Shown: positions 36,001 to 42,000 of the stretch, piece after piece
How positions within the stretch are numbered: the stretch's first letter is position 1
Layout of the letters: each line of letters opens with the position of its first letter
Source of the DNA: Escherichia coli O157:H7
GTDB lineage: Bacteria > Pseudomonadota > Gammaproteobacteria > Enterobacterales > Enterobacteriaceae
Assembly: GCF_013167455.1 (NCBI RefSeq)
Contig: NZ_CP038328.1
Length of the DNA stretch: 64,000 nt
Direction: 5' to 3' (one strand)
Made by a program: the position numbers

Positions 36001-39000
36001 ATGCTGGTTTTTACCTGATGAAACAAGCCTGACGACCTTTCAAATTTTATTCTGATTTTACGATCAATAGCTCGTTTTTTATCCGGTAGTAAGTCGCTCG
36101 GCTGATTCCTGCTGCCTTCATGATGAGTTCAGGTTTTACTCCTTGCTCCAACATCTCTCTAACGATCTCTCGGGCTTCCTGATTTTTCGCCCTCCCAATG
36201 TATATGCCTTCGCTTTTAGCTCGTTCAATGCCTTGCTGTTGGCGTTTACGGCGTGTTTCGTAATCCTGCCGTGCCATTGTGGCAAGGATATCAATCAACA
36301 TGGCATTTACGGCTCTCAGGATGCCGCTGGTTAGATCATTGCCTGCCATCTCGACCATCTGCCAGCTCGTTGGTAAATCCATTGATACGATGATTAACCC
36401 TTTTCGGTTGAGCGTATCTTTCAGTTCGACCCATGCACTATGTTCTAGGCGACTCAGACGATCTATAGCTTCCACTAGCAACAGATCGCCGGACTGGGCT
36501 TCAGACAATAGCCGCATAAGCTCTACGCGCTCAAGCTTCGCCCCGCTAGCATTTTCTATATACTCTCCTGCAATCTGCCAGCCTTTTGATTTTGAAAATT
36601 CACGTAGGCTGGTAAGTGCTCGATCAGCGTGTTGCCCCTCAGTTGATGCTCGGCAGTAAATTCTAACGTTCATTGCATTGTCTCAAAAGGGTTGTGAATA
36701 TAAGTGCAAATGATACATAATGCAGTTTGTGTAGTCAAAATGTTCCTATACAACCCTATTGAGACTTTGTATCACCTTGTCATTACGGTATACCCAATTG
36801 AGACAATGATAACGGCTGGTGTTTAAGGTGATATATTGAGCTAGCCGAAAGAAACAGCCCGACACCGTTTTTACCGTATGAGATAATTTGTTGTGCTGGT
36901 GGGGTTGCTTGCCAGTACTTGGAATGGTACAAATCTGTACCATTGTTCGACGGTCTATTAACAAGGAGTGTTAAGATGGAAAAAGACCTGAAAGAGTTGC
37001 GGGAATACCTATTACTTTCCCCCGTCTATTCTGAAATTAACGATTGTCTGGCTAGTCTCTCAATGGAAGACGTGACCAATGAAGAGTTCGCGGAACGTTT
37101 GGGAATTGCTCCTGATTGGATGGATGCTATAGATACTAGCCAACTTGCTTAAGAAAGGATGCGCCATTGCTGGGCGCGTTTCTCATTTCTCCCGTAGCAC
37201 TACGCATACCTTCTAATAAATTTCACCATCAAAATCAGTAGATTGATAAAATGTCACTCAAATCTGTCATAAGTATCACAATTTTTAAACCTAATTGAAA
37301 TATAATGTTATTAGATATTATCTAATGGAGGTAGTTTAATGTCTTATGCGTTGATTGATAATGCTTCGTTAACAGCAGTCGAAAGAACACTGGGTGATAT
37401 TCTTGTTAAGAATCCAGATACTATTAACGGAGATTTAGTCGCTTTTGAAAATCTTATTCAAGCGATACTTTTTTACGATACCCTGATCTGTGTAGATAAT
37501 TATAAAAAAGAATATAGAGATAAACGCATTGCTAAATTTGACTTTATTAAATTTGTATCTGAAAGTGATTTTCAACTCAGTGAACTTGATCAGTTAGCAC
37601 AAGTTGAATCTCGGCAAATTACTTCCGAAATTAGAGGTGGGGAGTTTGTTGACGATGATTTTAGGCAACTTGTAGAGATGCTTAAGCTGAATATGATTTG
37701 CACATGGGATCTTCGGTCTAGCGTGTATTACTTAACAATGAAAATGCTTGGTCAGCCCGGTACTCCTGAATATGCGAAATATAGTGAACTAAGTGCATCG
37801 ATTTTTAATGAATTATCAGATGCTTCTGATACGAAAGGGTACTGGTCAACCGATGTGAAGCTAGTGAGTTCATCTGGACATGAATATACTGAGCGTGAAT
37901 TTGAACTAGAAAGGGAAAAATCTACTCGCGGTAAAGGAGGTATGACTCGTTCACTTGAAATGTTTATCGCATCGCTAAATTGGTTGGCATATAAATCTAT
38001 TTATTACAGCGTCATTGCTAAGCATTTTAAAGCAGACTCATTTATTCATCCAATAAGGCATGCATATCAATTGCATTGGATGAAAAAAACAGGTGCTTTT
38101 GGTCATGATTATACTGCAAGGTTGGTGCAATCGTTGTCTGATAAAATCAGTACTGCAAGATCTGAAATTGTAGATCATGGACGCACATCTACTATTTCAT
38201 TAGATTTACCAATATTTTCTGCATGGCTAGCAAACGAAACAGGAAATGTCTCTCAAGTTATCAATTCAGCTTTAGAGCTTAGAACACATGATCATTTTCG
38301 TACGTGTCGAGATGTAATCCGAGAGATTCATGTGACCTACGATGAATCGGGGATAAGTGCAGGAAATAAAAAAGTAACAAAATTACTAAGTGATTTAGAT
38401 AAAATATCTGGAGATATTAAACGAAGCTACGGTGTTCCATCAAATCAAGGTATTCAAGGCAGTTTTTTGATAAAATGTATAAATTCATTGACAGGACTCG
38501 TGGGTATTCCAGGTTTGCCTGATAAAGAGTTTGCACTGAGCACTCCTGAATTTATGAAGTCTAAACAACATAAAGCATTTTCTACCGTTTTCAAGGATGT
38601 TACTAACGAACTAACAAGCATTGAACGTTTAGGTGGGCTTCGGGATAAATTAGCGTCGAACTTTACTATTGATGATTCTTATTATACCGAGCCAAAAACA
38701 GAGGATCCGAGATTCCGTTACGTAAGTAGTAATTGGAAGCAGCCAATGTAGATATAGTTAAATGTATAATTATAAGTAATAACAATTTACAGACATTATT
38801 GAATTAAAAATATTGCGTTAGGGTATAATATCTAACGCAATTAGATTGAAAAGTTAATTAAATAGTTAGTCAGAGCTAACTTCTTGTATTGTTAGTTACA
38901 CTGCCTAACCTACAGACAAAAAGCCCCTCAGAATTGTGCTTACGCGCTCAAATTTCACTGCTGGGGATTTTTACGTACATTCAACCCAAAAAGTGACCAA

Positions 39001-42000
39001 AAAAGTTCTTACAGAGTTGACGTTACGTTGACGTTGTTTTCTGAAAATGATCCCTTGGTGACTTATTTTATGTATTTGATTTTACGTTTTTTCTTTAATG
39101 TTTTATCACTTTAAACTAACGTCAACTTATCCTTATAGAGCGATTAATTTCTATAAGTACTTTTTCTCAAAATTTGATTTTTACGGATGGAAGTCCATCA
39201 AAGAAACGTCATTTTTTTCTAAGACTTTGATCTTTCGTTAACGGTGTTAGTGGGGACTTCGGTCGTCGAGCGCGATGCGCTTCTGACCGTTTCAATGGAT
39301 AGGTTCGCCTTCTTGCGCCTCTCGCGGCGTTTGCCGCGCTCCGCGCTTTTGGCGGTTTGGCAGGCATATCTCTCTTATTATTGGTCGTTTTTTGCACCGC
39401 CTTGTCACGATCTGTCACTACTAGTAGTAATGGTCATAACCTCCGCTTTCTCTTTTGGCTCTGGATGCTCTCACTCGTGCTCTTCTTAACATCCTTAACA
39501 GTGGGTGGGTTTGTACTTTGTTCGAGTTTATTATCTGTGAGGATAGTAATTCCCTGCGCTCTGTCTCTGCCTCTTTGGTGACCGCTATCACTGATAAATC
39601 CCAATCGTGTTTGCTAATTAACGGTGCTTGGAACGGGGTGATTGGTGATCGATTTATGTCTTGTCGTTTCAATGTACGCTGTATCTGTCGCTTAGCTTTG
39701 TAGTTGTCTTTCCTTGATGCCTGAACGGCTTTTAGTATGCGTCTTACAGCATGAAAGCCAGTGATAGAAAGTGTTTCTTTTTTTATCTCATGCCGCGCCC
39801 AGCCATTCGAATAACCCCAAACGTTGGCATCTGACCAATCATATAGGCTCTTGCTCGCCTCTCTATTAAAGTCATTTAACTTAGTTTCGGGCTTTGCCAT
39901 GTAATCAATCTGTTTACCTATACACTTTGTAGGCTCTGAATATTGCTGACCTTTCAAATCTAGATCCCACTGGGGAGGAACATTTGATGGGATTGCATTG
40001 TTTGCCAGTGTTACCCATTTGCTGACAATTTTGCCAGCTTGCCCATTAATGCTTCTTTCGTTCACCATGATTATTGCGTGTACATGCGGCTCTGACTGGT
40101 GTTGAGCCCACTCCATGACGTAAACCCACTGATTGCCTTGAATGAAAGCGATATTGCATCGCTTGATACCAGAGTTCAGTCGCTGGAATCGCAGGTTTCA
40201 GACCATGAAACGCGCATTAATGCTCTGGAGTATGCCACTACGCGCAAGAAGTCAGAGGTTGTTTACTCTGGCGTATCAGTAACCATCCCGACAGCGCCGA
40301 CCAACCTTGTTAGCCTGCTGAAAACGCTTACGCCGTCATCCGGGACGTTGGCACCATTCTTCGACACCGTTAACAACAAGATGGTTGTGTTCAACGAGAA
40401 CAAAACCTTGTTCTTCAAGCTGTCGATTGTCGGGACGTGGCCCAGCGGAACCGCCAACAGGTCAATGCAGCTAACATTCTCCGGTTCTGTTCCTGACACG
40501 CTAGTAAGCAGTCGCAACTCGGCAACAACAACCGACAACATCCTGTTAGCTACGTTCTTCAGCGTGGATAAAGACGGCTTTCTTGCCACAAATGGCAGCA
40601 CGTTAACCATTCAGTCGAATGGCGCGGCGTTTACTGCCACAACCATCAAAATCATTGCGGAGCAGTGATGGAAATAAAGCTCATCGATAACCCGGTGAAA
40701 CTTGCAGAATTCCTTAACAACCCGGTAAACACGGGGAATATCGTAGACAGTGGAGATAAATACTACATCAAGCCTGATGCGGTATATCTCGGCATCTACG
40801 AAGGATTAGTGCTGGCTGGAGTTCATGAAGTGCGTAACTTCTGGCATAGCGTTGTTGAATGCCATGCGGTGTATGACCCCGGATTCCGTGGCGAATATGC
40901 ACTACAAGGGCATCGATTATTCTGCAAATGGCTTCTCGAAAACTCACCATTCCTTAACAGCATCACCATGGTTCCTGACACCACCAAATACGGACGGGCA
41001 ATTATCCGTTTGCTTGGCGCTACCCGTGTTGGTCACCTTGATGATGCGTACATGAGTAACGGAAAACCGGTAGGAATCACCCTCTATCAATTACCTCGTT
41101 CGAAATATGAGGAGCTATTAAATGTTAGTACTTAGCGAAAGCTTCAAGAATAAATTGCTTCCCATGAATGGGTATATGAAAGGCGGCAGCGACTCCGGAT
41201 CTAAAGCCCAGGCACGCGCAACTGAAAAGGGCATCGAACTGCAGCGTGAAATGTGGCAGACGAACATGCAAAACCTTGCACCGTTCACGCCACTCGCTCA
41301 GCAGTACGTATCACAGTTGCAGAATCTTTCCTCTCTTCAGGGGCAAGGTCAGGCGCTTAACCAGTATTACAACTCTCAGCAGTATAAAGACCTTGCAGGG
41401 CAGGCGCGCTATCAGAGTCTGGCAGCAGCAGAGGCAACGGGTGGATTAGGCTCTACAGCAACAGGAAACCAGTTAGCAGCAATCGCACCTACACTCGGTC
41501 AAAACTGGCTGTCAGGTCAGATGAACAACTACAACAATCTGGCAAATATCGGCCTTGGTGCTCTTACAGGTCAGGCAAACGCCGGACAGAACTACGCTAA
41601 CAATGTCAGCCAATTGTATCAACAGCAGGCGGCAGCATCGGCAGCAAATGCGAATAAGCCTTCAGGCCTACAGAGTTTTGCTACAGGTGCCATTGGTGGG
41701 GCCGCATCAGGTGCAATGATTGGTAGTGCAGTTCCTGTTATTGGGACTGGTATTGGTGCTCTTGCTGGCGGTGTTATCGGTGGTCTTGGATCATTGTTTT
41801 AAGGTGGGAATATGGCTACTTGGCAACAAGGAATCAACTCAGGCGGTTTTCTTGCTGGTATCGGTGGGCAAAACTCAAATGCGCCAAAGGCAAGTGATGT
41901 AAGTGAGGCGTTGGCCTATATTCGCCAGAACAACGAAATGGAGCGTTCAGGTCGCAATAACATCGGCCTTCAGGCGTTGCAGGGACTTGGTAGTGTCGCT

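What the first reader, a model, noticed from the sequence alone, without database searches (positions are those of the whole stretch)
38990..40116. Iteron-like GTTGACGTTA repeats next to a truncated relaxase-like gene: remnant of a mobilisable replicon
The ORF at 39421-40116 begins with a motif like the MobA-type histidine triad (EPHVHAIIMVNERSING) but lacks the upstream catalytic tyrosine region. The AT-rich spacer beside it carries tandem and inverted copies of GTTGACGTTA, as expected for an oriT or origin.
Basis: partly seen in the sequence, partly recalled or inferred. Interest (0 to 1): 0.5.

Follow-up and report, generated by a model that had tools for sequence, protein, structure and literature searches.

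The report
Truncated rolling-circle Rep gene beside its origin
This is the dead remnant of a small plasmid-like element that once sat in the E. coli O157:H7 chromosome: half of its replication-initiator gene plus the repeat-bearing replication-origin region next to it, an ordinary kind of genomic fossil from a poorly described element family.

Summary
ORF 39421-40116 (-) starts at an HUH motif (EPHVHAIIMV). GTTGACGTT occurs three times in 111 nt: two tandem copies 11 nt apart and one inverted.

The gene is not a MobA-type relaxase. It is a 5'-truncated HUH rolling-circle Rep. Full-length relatives have 350 aa and a weak but significant PF23343 match. The catalytic Tyr lies downstream of HUH (IDYMAKPETK) and is retained. 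What is missing is about 112 N-terminal codons, including motif 1.

Island homology ends at 40139, and a 5'-truncated P22-like tail-needle gene starts at 40140. Intact copies form a 10.3 kb island at tRNA-Arg argW: integrase, AlpA-like gene, small genes, Rep, this non-coding region, variable (often defence) cargo, serine recombinase.

Small circular Klebsiella plasmids of 5-12 kb carry the same core gene order and a homologous ~500 nt non-coding module. It contains the TTGACGTTA motif, an invariant CAAAGTCYTAGAAAAAAA box and a CTTATA...TATAAG inverted repeat. The repeats are therefore conserved parts of this replicon family's probable origin. Their role as Rep-binding sites is inferred.

In O157 (the Sp16/argW remnant) the integrase and the Rep N-terminus are gone, so the replicon is probably inactive. 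This is a new member of a known kind, of modest interest.

The parts
39421..40139 (-). 5'-truncated rep gene for an HUH rolling-circle replication initiator. The ORF as listed is 39421-40116, and in-frame homology to full-length rep continues to 40139. It keeps motif 2 (HVHAII) and motif 3 (IDYMAKPETK, the catalytic Tyr). It lacks about 112 N-terminal codons, including motif 1.
   Evidence: It is 97% identical to residues 120-350 of P0001 (350 aa). blastn against intact islands L010 and L013 ends at window 40139.
40139..40140 (.). Deletion junction between the island's rep gene and a P22-like prophage remnant.
   Evidence: Island homology stops at 40139. Homology to phages Kapi1, Sf6 and Louie starts at 40140.
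40140..40668 (+). 5'-truncated tail needle knob gene (P22 gp26-like), the first gene of the prophage remnant on the other side of the junction.
   Evidence: RefSeq marks it a pseudogene 'missing N-terminus'. phrog_1030 'tail needle knob' scores 4e-93 over profile positions 83-256.
39250..39350 (-). G+C-rich hairpin block just downstream of the rep stop codon. Hairpins lie at 39316-39347 (GCGC..CGCGGC AAAC GCCGCG..GCGC on the rep strand) and at 39269-39281. It is a candidate single-strand initiation or lagging-strand origin (inferred).
   Evidence: z -1.9 here. The equivalent blocks in related plasmids fold with z -4.2 and -4.7. G+C is 63%.
39212..39228 (-). Box A: AAAGTCTTAGAAAAAAA on the rep strand. 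It is nearly invariant between the E. coli/E. albertii islands and plasmids whose Rep is only 24% identical, and diverged in the Klebsiella island. It is a candidate nick or recognition region (inferred).
39206..39211 (-). Isolated TGACGT half-site adjoining box A.
   Evidence: It is lost in E. albertii and in L015.
39132..39157 (-). Hairpin CTTATAGA-N10-TCTATAAG. The CTTATA box is invariant in all islands and plasmids. It forms the proximal arm of the large inverted repeat that encloses the iterons. It is a candidate nick-site hairpin (inferred).
39117..39126 (-). Proximal repeat copy, GTTGACGTTA on the rep strand.
39037..39116 (.). A+T-rich spacer between the inverted repeat copies. It diverges strongly between otherwise similar islands, so it may be a DNA-unwinding region or an insertion-prone interval.
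39016..39036 (+). Two tandem repeat copies with 11-nt phasing: GTTGACGTTA then GTTGACGTTG. They are inverted relative to the proximal copy.
   Evidence: The pair is conserved in E. coli, in E. albertii (GTTGATGTTATGTTGATG) and in Klebsiella islands (GTTGATGTTACGTTGACGT).
39008..39015 (-). Distal arm TCTGTAAG, equivalent to the TCTATAAG arm of the plasmids' CTTATAC...TATAAG inverted repeat.
38984..39006 (.). Two direct repeats, ACCCAAAAAGT and ACCAAAAAAGT, at the position of the plasmids' TTGATCA..TTGATGTCC repeats.
38917..38972 (.). Long-loop hairpin (CCCCTCAG...CTGCTGGGG) flanked by T runs on both strands. It marks the end of the conserved backbone and aligns with the plasmids' TTTTTATCTGTAAG.
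   Evidence: The terminator scan did not call it.
37219..38879 (+). Variable cargo slot. Here it holds one 470-aa ORF (37339-38751) of unknown function.
   Evidence: Backbone homology breaks at 37218 and at 38880. phrog_13435 has no known function. There is no NCBIfam, PADLOC or Pfam match. Other islands carry SIR2, a GTPase or GapS6a/b in this slot.
36976..37152 (+). Small conserved ORF of 58 aa (phrog_35119) upstream of the recombinase. It is part of the island backbone.
36047..36673 (-). Serine recombinase of the resolvase/invertase type. It belongs to the backbone and is 45% identical to the recombinase of the related plasmids, so it is probably the multimer resolvase.
35897..35912 (-). 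Repeat of the argW 3' end (TTCGATTCCTGCAGGG), marking the distal att boundary of the island remnant.
43123..44516 (-). intS and tRNA-Arg argW (44445-44516), the proximal boundary of the composite remnant.

Best explanation
The locus is the decayed right half of a ~10 kb integrative, plasmid-like genomic island that inserts at tRNA-Arg argW.

The intact island carries, in order: a P4-type tyrosine integrase, a 251-aa gene, an AlpA-like gene, two small genes (one 64 aa), a 128-aa gene, a 350-aa HUH rolling-circle Rep, a ~500 nt non-coding module, a variable cargo slot, a small ORF and a serine recombinase.

Proposed mechanism in the intact element. After excision, Rep binds the GTTGACGTT repeats. 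It nicks one strand nearby, with the invariant CAAAGTCYTAG-A7 box or the CTTATA hairpin as the candidate site, using Tyr191 and the HUH-bound metal. This primes rolling-circle replication. The G+C-rich hairpins then start complementary-strand synthesis, and the recombinase resolves multimers.

History in E. coli O157:H7. A P22-like prophage integrated in tandem at argW. A deletion then joined its tail-needle gene (40140) to rep codon ~112 (40139), removing the island's integrase, regulators and Rep motif 1. What remains is a probably inactive rep fragment, an orphan origin, the cargo gene and the recombinase.

Shown: the gene's identity, the truncation point, the synteny with islands and plasmids, and the conservation of the repeats and boxes.

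Inferred: Rep binding to the repeats, the nick site, rolling-circle replication of the island, and inactivity of the remnant.
For: Rep identity:
- Full-length homologues of 324-350 aa exist at 97% and ~50% identity.
- PF23343 REP_ORF2-G2P scores E 1.5e-6 on P0001.
- Across 14 homologues down to 18% identity, the invariant residues are G80 and T86 (motif 1), E121, P129, H130, H132 (HUH), and Y191 and K194 (motif 3).

Truncation: island homology ends at 40139 and phage homology begins at 40140.

Intact islands:
- L010 lies between argW and dsdC, with 26-nt att repeats 10.3 kb apart.
- A tandem prophage-plus-island arrangement exists in strain 7/2.

Plasmid relationship:
- Circular 5.5-12 kb Klebsiella plasmids carry syntenic homologues of the 64-aa gene (43-44% identity), the 128-aa gene (39-46%), Rep (24%) and the recombinase (45% in L017; 28% in L018).
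- These plasmids have no other candidate initiator.

Origin module:
- The non-coding region downstream of rep aligns between islands and plasmids. Shared features are G+C hairpins, box A, the CTTATA...TATAAG arms, TTGACGTTA copies and the terminal TTTTTATCTGTAAG.
- The tandem pair is also kept in E. albertii and in Klebsiella islands.
- The spacer is single-copy and found only with this island in E. coli.
Against: - No experiment supports any of this. No nick site can be assigned from sequence.
- The repeat motif is nearly invariant while Rep diverges to 24% identity. That is unusual for a specificity determinant. It could mean that the better conserved 64-aa HTH protein, the 128-aa protein or a host factor binds the repeats instead.
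- Repeat number and orientation vary between relatives: 1 copy in L017, a compact palindrome in L019, degenerate copies in L021.
- The island's G+C block folds only marginally better than shuffles (z -1.9).
- The Klebsiella islands have cargo genes between rep and the origin-like module, and their box A is diverged.
Confidence: 0.65

Rival explanations
1. Transfer origin and relaxase. The HUH protein would nick at an oriT in the repeat region so that the excised island can be mobilised by a conjugative helper. On this view the remnant is a dead integrative mobilisable element.
For: HUH Reps and relaxases share chemistry, and Rep-type proteins serve as relaxases in some integrative mobilisable elements (established knowledge; cited as reference 33 in PMC10121019). 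There is a weak Pfam Relaxase match at E 0.02. The island has no transfer genes of its own, so some helper is needed for spread.
Against: The motif order is that of Rep proteins, and PF23343 is the significant match. The homologous plasmids are typed non-mobilizable and have no other replication initiator, so Rep must at least replicate them. No relaxase-type N-terminal Tyr is present.
Confidence: 0.1
2. The repeats are operator sites for one of the small DNA-binding proteins of the element (the 64-aa HTH protein or the 128-aa protein). They would control transcription or copy number rather than being bound by Rep.
For: The motif stays constant while Rep diverges to 24% identity. The 64-aa and 128-aa proteins are better conserved, at 39-46%. 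TTGACG resembles a -35 hexamer (read directly from the sequence).
Against: No promoter-like site is called at the repeats. The repeats lie inside the conserved CTTATA...TATAAG inverted repeat next to the invariant box, an arrangement typical of double-strand origins. A regulatory role and an origin role are not mutually exclusive.
Confidence: 0.13
3. The inverted repeats are recombination sites. They could be res or cassette-exchange sites for the island's serine recombinase, which would account for the variable spacer and the variable cargo.
For: The spacer between the inverted copies is hypervariable. In plasmid L017 a cargo gene sits between the CTTATAC box and the TTGACGTTA copy. A serine recombinase is a constant backbone gene.
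Against: The repeats lie 2.4 kb from the recombinase gene, whereas res sites normally adjoin it. The 9-10 bp units do not resemble 26-30 bp serine-recombinase crossover sites. Cargo positions differ between relatives, falling after the module, inside it or before it. That argues against a single defined cassette site.
Confidence: 0.07
4. Chance repeats in A+T-rich junk DNA beside a pseudogene, with no function.
For: The naive shuffle test is weak, 448 of 5000. The element is decayed in this genome.
Against: The complexity-filtered shuffle test gives 64 of 20000. The motif is conserved at the same position in E. coli, E. albertii and Klebsiella islands and in plasmids with 24% identical Rep.
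Confidence: 0.02

Closest known systems
pMV158 RepB and its double-strand origin (nick hairpin, proximal repeats and three distal 11-bp direct repeats)
   Different: There is no detectable sequence similarity. Here there are two tandem copies plus one inverted copy, the origin lies downstream of rep, and the host is Gram-negative. The details of the pMV158 origin are recalled from memory, not tested here.
Pfam PF23343 REP_ORF2-G2P (replication proteins of Spiroplasma plectroviruses and inoviruses)
   Same: It is the only significant Pfam match for the full-length protein (E 1.5e-6, residues 85-146). The three rolling-circle motifs occur in the same order.
   Different: The match is partial (56 of 99 profile positions) and marked weak in the precomputed tables. 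tblastn found no phage relative. No virion genes are present in the island.
phiX174 gpA / pC194-pUB110 type rolling-circle origins (nick in CTTG|ATA)
   Same: The conserved CTTATA box followed by an A+T-rich stretch (ACTTATAGAAATTAATC) resembles ACTTGATATTAATAAC. This resemblance is recalled from memory and is only a lead.
   Different: This Rep has a single conserved Tyr (YMAK), not YxxKY. No homology was shown.
Integrative rolling-circle plasmids such as pSAM2 (actinomycete integrative and conjugative elements) and islands with plasmid-like replication such as SGI1 (PMC7826253, PMC7433901)
   Same: The combination of a tRNA-targeting tyrosine integrase with an own replication initiator and origin. 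Replication is expected only after excision.
   Different: The hosts are enterobacteria. There is no transfer gene, the Rep family is different, and the replicon core is shared with small free plasmids. The pSAM2 facts are from memory.
PICI and P4-like phage satellites (int, alpA, rep, defence hotspot)
   Same: Intact relatives share int, an AlpA-like gene, rep and a variable defence-type cargo slot. They sit in tandem with P22-like or KplE1-like prophages at argW.
   Different: No packaging or capsid-redirecting genes were recognised. The Rep is an HUH nickase rather than a primase-helicase. No evidence of induction or packaging was found.
MOBQ MobA relaxase with oriT
   Same: An HUH-type metal site and a short repeat or hairpin region beside the gene.
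   Different: In MobA the catalytic Tyr precedes the His motif, whereas here it follows it. The Pfam Relaxase match is not significant, E 0.02.

Membership tests
HUH rolling-circle replication initiators (Rep class) | Motif 2: HUH (His-hydrophobic-His) metal site | tested here: met
   HVHAII is present in the window ORF. P129, H130 and H132 are invariant in 14 homologues.
HUH rolling-circle replication initiators (Rep class) | Motif 3: catalytic Tyr (YxxK) C-terminal to HUH | tested here: met
   IDYMAKPETK is in the window ORF. Y191 and K194 are invariant.
HUH rolling-circle replication initiators (Rep class) | Motif 1 (uuTu-type strand, here G.PY..TLT) N-terminal to HUH | tested here: not met
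   It is present in full-length relatives (G80 and T86 invariant) but deleted from the window copy, where homology starts at residue ~112. The window gene is therefore a fragment of a family member, not an intact member.
HUH rolling-circle replication initiators (Rep class) | HUH nuclease fold | tested here: met
HUH rolling-circle replication initiators (Rep class) | Site-specific nicking and joining at an origin | not testable with these tools
   This requires biochemistry.
Pfam PF23343 REP_ORF2-G2P | Significant profile match | tested here: met
   The full-length P0001 scores E 1.5e-6. The truncated window ORF has no Pfam match at all, because the matched segment (residues 85-146) is cut.
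MobA/MOBQ relaxases | Catalytic Tyr N-terminal to the His motif | tested here: not met
   The order is motif 1, HUH, Tyr.
MobA/MOBQ relaxases | Relaxase profile match (PF03432) | tested here: not met
   E 0.02, score 15.6, below significance and weaker than PF23343.
Iteron-controlled theta replicons | Three or more direct repeats of about 17-22 bp bound by a winged-helix Rep (Rep_3/RepA type) | tested here: not met
   The units are 9-10 bp, two direct and one inverted. The Rep is HUH and not winged-helix.
Rolling-circle double-strand origin | Non-coding module next to rep, conserved among relatives that replicate autonomously | tested here: met
   The module is homologous in four circular Klebsiella plasmids and in islands.
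Rolling-circle double-strand origin | Hairpin that presents the nick site | tested here: inconclusive
   An 8-bp hairpin exists at 39132-39157, and larger CTTATA...TATAAG arms are present in all relatives. The nick site is unknown, and the 251-nt region does not fold significantly better than shuffles (z -1.4).
Phage satellites (PICI / P4-like) | int plus an AlpA-type activator | tested here: not met
   Both are present in intact relatives but absent from the window copy, where they were removed by the deletion.
Phage satellites (PICI / P4-like) | Genes for hijacking packaging or capsid (terS, ppi, cpm, sid/psu-like) | tested here: not met
   No PHROG or NCBIfam match of that kind was found among the ten genes of island L010.

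The most novel reading that the evidence does not exclude
The island and the small Klebsiella plasmids may together form an undescribed family of enterobacterial rolling-circle replicons that exist both free and integrated at argW. In this family the origin region itself would be the place where cargo, mostly anti-phage genes, is gained and swapped.

The supporting observations are positional. Cargo sits after the origin module in E. coli, between the CTTATA box and the repeats in plasmid L017, and between rep and the module in Klebsiella islands. The spacer between the inverted repeats is hypervariable.

If Rep-mediated nicking or faulty termination at the origin drives this capture, it would be a new route of defence-gene exchange. 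The repeated independent destruction of rep in integrated copies would then reflect selection against a chromosomal origin that can still fire.
Probability: 0.15. Interest if true: 0.65.

Novelty: new member of a known kind. Interest (0 to 1): 0.35.

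Why it matters
For O157:H7 the result clarifies what part of the Sp16/argW remnant is. It is not only P22-like debris. It also holds the right half of a separate plasmid-like island, with an orphan origin and one uncharacterised cargo gene.

The wider value lies in the element family. About 10% of complete E. coli genomes carry this origin module. The cargo slot holds SIR2, GTPase and GapS6 genes. The same replicon core runs small Klebsiella plasmids that replicon typing does not recognise, including a 15.7 kb KPC-2 plasmid.

A defined Rep-plus-origin pair would give plasmid typing schemes a missing replicon. It would also give a testable model for how 'integrase-only' defence islands (PMC10121019) amplify after excision.

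Tried and rejected
- Pfam, NCBIfam and PADLOC on the truncated ORF gave nothing. Identification needed the full-length homologue.
- A sequence search of the PDB found no relative.
- tblastn against 50,697 phage records found nothing, so an integrated filamentous or microvirus-like phage is unlikely.
- The scan of species-representative genomes returned only two loci, in E. albertii and Citrobacter.
- The all-representatives protein search shows a small family, 21 clusters.
- The 69-aa basic ORF at 39209-39418 (-), overlapping the G+C block, was rejected as a gene. A 1-nt indel breaks its frame in L010, and it has no family match.
- Rfam found no RNA family in 36-45 kb except argW.
- The promoter and terminator scan gave nothing above expectation. 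The one 'terminator' call is the tandem repeat itself.
- The naive repeat-significance test was uninformative because of A/T runs.
- A scan of IMG/VR with box A retrieved predicted prophage regions of isolate genomes (six with Rep homology: one full-length, four O157-type truncations, one shorter fragment) and five hits with no Rep homology. None gave evidence of packaging.
- Literature searches (argW + island + rolling circle; PF23343; the KPC plasmid accession) found no description of this element. The searches did confirm that Sakai's Sp16 is placed at argW.

Full report
**1. Where the window comes from**

The region is 100% identical to E. coli O157:H7 chromosomes. RefSeq annotation of strain TR01 gives the following gene order:
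- the csc sucrose genes;
- a DUF4942 fragment;
- a serine recombinase;
- a 58-aa ORF;
- a 470-aa hypothetical protein;
- a 215-aa hypothetical protein, which is the finding's ORF;
- a 5'-truncated tail needle knob pseudogene;
- DUF2824 and two DNA ejection/transfer proteins;
- intS;
- tRNA-Arg (argW).

A 16-nt copy of the argW 3' end recurs at about 35897-35912. The composite remnant therefore spans roughly 35.9-44.4 kb. It corresponds to what O157 papers call Sp16 at argW (PMC3519850).

**2. Check of the observation**

The ORF 39421-40116 (-) and its start, MEWAQHQSEPHVHAIIMVNERSING, are as described.

GTTGACGTT occurs at 39016 and 39027 on the + strand, spaced 11 nt apart, and at 39117-39126 on the - strand. 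A further TGACGT lies at 39206-39211. The surrounding DNA is 26-30% G+C, followed by a 63% G+C block at 39250-39350.

From this sequence alone the repeat is moderately unlikely. The complexity-filtered shuffle test gives 64 of 20000. With one mismatch allowed the pattern occurs 11 times against 3.5 expected in the window, and three of those copies fall within 111 nt. A naive test is uninformative. The decisive support comes from conservation, described in section 5.

**3. What the gene is**

The truncated ORF matches no Pfam, NCBIfam or PADLOC family. The protein search did find full-length relatives:
- P0001, 350 aa, 97% identical over the ORF;
- Klebsiella proteins of 324-347 aa, about 50-55% identical.

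These carry precomputed PF23343 hits. Pfam on P0001 gives REP_ORF2-G2P at E 1.5e-6, while Relaxase scores only E 0.02.

An alignment of 14 homologues, reaching down to 18% identity, has these invariant residues:
- G80 and T86, in the motif-1 strand G.PY..TLT;
- E121, P129, H130 and H132, the HUH motif;
- W153 and Q177;
- Y191 and K194, in YMAK;
- W225.

This is the motif order of rolling-circle Rep proteins, with the catalytic Tyr after HUH. The Tyr is retained (IDYMAKPETK). What is lost is the N-terminal ~112 residues with motif 1.

- AAV Rep, Helitron and the IS200/IS608-type TnpA transposases.

Foldseek points the same way, but weakly. There is no solved relative by sequence. The family is small, 21 clusters at 50% identity among 1.8 billion representatives.

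**4. The truncation**

In frame, homology to full-length rep continues upstream of the listed ATG as far as 40139. Homology to P22-like phages (Kapi1, Sf6, Louie) begins at 40140. So one clean junction joins rep codon ~112 to the interior of a tail-needle gene on the opposite strand.

The prophage remnant has a second such scar. ORF 41812-42948 is an injectosome translocase domain (P22 gp20-like) fused to the C-terminal end of an acyltransferase.

**5. The intact element and the origin-like module**

Intact copies in E. coli lie exactly between argW and dsdC or the csc genes, bounded by 26-nt att repeats 10.3 kb apart (L010). Their gene order is:
- integrase (428 aa, 31% identical to IntS);
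- a 251-aa ORF;
- an AlpA-like excisionase/regulator;
- a 63-aa ORF;
- a 64-aa DNA-binding protein;
- a 128-aa ORF;
- Rep;
- the non-coding region;
- cargo;
- a 58-aa ORF;
- the serine recombinase.

In strain 7/2 the island sits in tandem behind a KplE1-like prophage. That is the arrangement from which the O157 deletion can be derived. Klebsiella and Citrobacter carry the same island type.

The cargo differs between otherwise similar backbones:
- SIR2 (L013);
- a GTPase pair (L014);
- GapS6a/b (L015);
- 330-aa and 821-aa ORFs (L010);
- HNH-type genes in Klebsiella;
- the 470-aa ORF here.

tblastn against plasmids found Rep relatives (24-29% identity) on small circular Klebsiella/Enterobacter plasmids typed non-mobilizable and without a replicon type. 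Two of them (5.7 kb) carry syntenic homologues of several island genes:
- the 64-aa protein, 43-44% identity;
- the 128-aa protein, 39-46%;
- Rep, 24%;
- the recombinase, 45% in L017 and 28% in L018.

They also have a small acidic ORF before the recombinase and no other candidate initiator. The island core is therefore a plasmid replicon joined to an integration module.

The ~500 nt downstream of rep is homologous between islands and plasmids. In the orientation of rep it contains:
- G+C-rich hairpins, which fold with z -4.2 and -4.7 in plasmids and -1.9 here;
- the box CAAAGTCYTAGAAAAAAA, nearly invariant between the E. coli/E. albertii islands and the plasmids;
- an invariant CTTATA box;
- an interval containing TTGACGTTA-type copies;
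- the complementary TATAAG arm;
- two short direct repeats;
- a T-run ending in ATCTGTAAG.

The TTGACGTTA-type copies vary between relatives:
- L019 has the compact palindrome TTGACGTTAAAACGTCAA;
- L018 has two to three copies;
- L017 has one;
- L021 has degenerate ones;
- the E. coli islands have one proximal copy and two distal inverted tandem copies, separated by an A+T-rich spacer of about 80 nt that diverges strongly between islands.

The tandem pair survives in E. albertii (GTTGATGTTATGTTGATG) and in Klebsiella islands (GTTGATGTTACGTTGACGT). In E. coli the region is single-copy, chromosomal and present in 542 of 5426 complete genomes.

**6. Mechanism**

The best-supported reading is a rolling-circle double-strand origin with three parts:
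- short phased repeats as the binding locus;
- a nearby invariant box or hairpin as the nick region;
- the G+C hairpins as the site where complementary-strand synthesis starts.

The resemblance to pMV158 (hairpin, proximal repeats, distal 11-bp repeats) and to the CTTG|ATA nick sites of phiX174/pC194 comes from my own knowledge. It is a lead, not a test.

Which protein reads the repeats is open. The motif's constancy across very divergent Reps fits either a conserved nuclease-domain contact or binding by the better conserved small proteins.

In O157 the element has lost its integrase, its AlpA-like gene, its small genes and Rep motif 1. It can neither excise nor, most likely, initiate replication.

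**7. Rivals**

An oriT/relaxase role is not excluded for the intact island. But it has no positive support, and the gene fails the relaxase membership tests.

A purely regulatory operator role and a recombination-site role remain possible at low probability.

Chance is effectively excluded by conservation.

**8. Novelty and verdict**

Truncated Rep genes beside orphan origins are ordinary fossils, and islands that combine an integrase with a replicon are a known kind.

I found no description of this particular replicon or island family in the searchable literature. It is common in E. coli, carries defence-type cargo, and underlies untyped Klebsiella plasmids including a KPC-2 plasmid.

The finding is real and its interpretation is partly right. 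It is of modest interest in itself and somewhat more as an entry point to the family.

Noticed in passing
window 37219-38879; L013 6707-9187; L014 6943-8220; L015 6754-10380; L010 12292-15746: The slot between the origin-like module and the recombinase holds different genes in otherwise similar islands: SIR2, a GTPase-domain pair, GapS6a/b, 330-aa and 821-aa ORFs, and here a 470-aa ORF with no Pfam, NCBIfam or PADLOC match. It looks like a defence-cargo hotspot, so the 470-aa protein is a candidate anti-phage gene.
   Followed up: partly
L017 3135-3760; L003 11044-13100: Cargo is not always outside the origin module. In plasmid L017 a 146-aa gene sits between the CTTATAC box and the TTGACGTTA...TATAAG part. 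In Klebsiella islands the HNH-type cargo sits between rep with its G+C hairpins and the rest of the module.
   Followed up: partly
P0003, P0006, P0011; L016 4609-6000; hits H19-H24: rep has been destroyed independently several times. Examples are a Rad52-like::Rep C-terminus fusion, an integrase::Rep C-terminus fusion, an internal deletion, an ISEc52-associated deletion reaching into the origin module, and IS2/IS3 insertions. Whether rep is lost more often than its neighbours was not tested.
   Followed up: no
window 41812-42948 (+): The gene annotated 'phage DNA ejection protein' is a chimera. Residues 12-217 match the P22 injectosome translocase domain and residues 230-343 match the C-terminal end of an acyltransferase (Acyl_transf_3). 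This marks a second internal deletion in the prophage remnant.
   Followed up: yes
L020 (NC_032098.1 / NZ_KX783440.1, 15,668 bp): A KPC-2 carbapenemase plasmid from Enterobacter/Klebsiella carries a Rep of this family and the homologous origin-like module. It has no replicon type in PLSDB, so this replicon may be escaping plasmid typing.
   Followed up: partly
window 33033-33046 and 33097-33110: Two copies of the palindrome-containing sequence TGTTAACGTTAAC lie 64 nt apart in the divergent cscA / csc kinase intergenic region. They are probably operators of the LacI-family csc repressor.
   Followed up: no
window 44637-45881 (+) and onwards: A second tyrosine integrase and lambdoid early genes (DUF1627, MT-A70 methyltransferase, Ant) begin directly on the other (5') side of argW. 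The tRNA is therefore flanked by mobile DNA on both sides.
   Followed up: no
L002 1-28 and 3223-3250: The two ends of the Logan contig that carries the full-length rep are exact reverse complements of each other. This is either an assembly-graph artefact or a sign of an inverted duplication in that sample's cargo gene.
   Followed up: no
window 35529-35711 (-): A DUF4942 gene fragment lies just outside the att-like repeat, between the island remnant and the csc genes. It also occurs in other strains (L009, L013, L014) and is presumably debris of an older insertion at argW.
   Followed up: no
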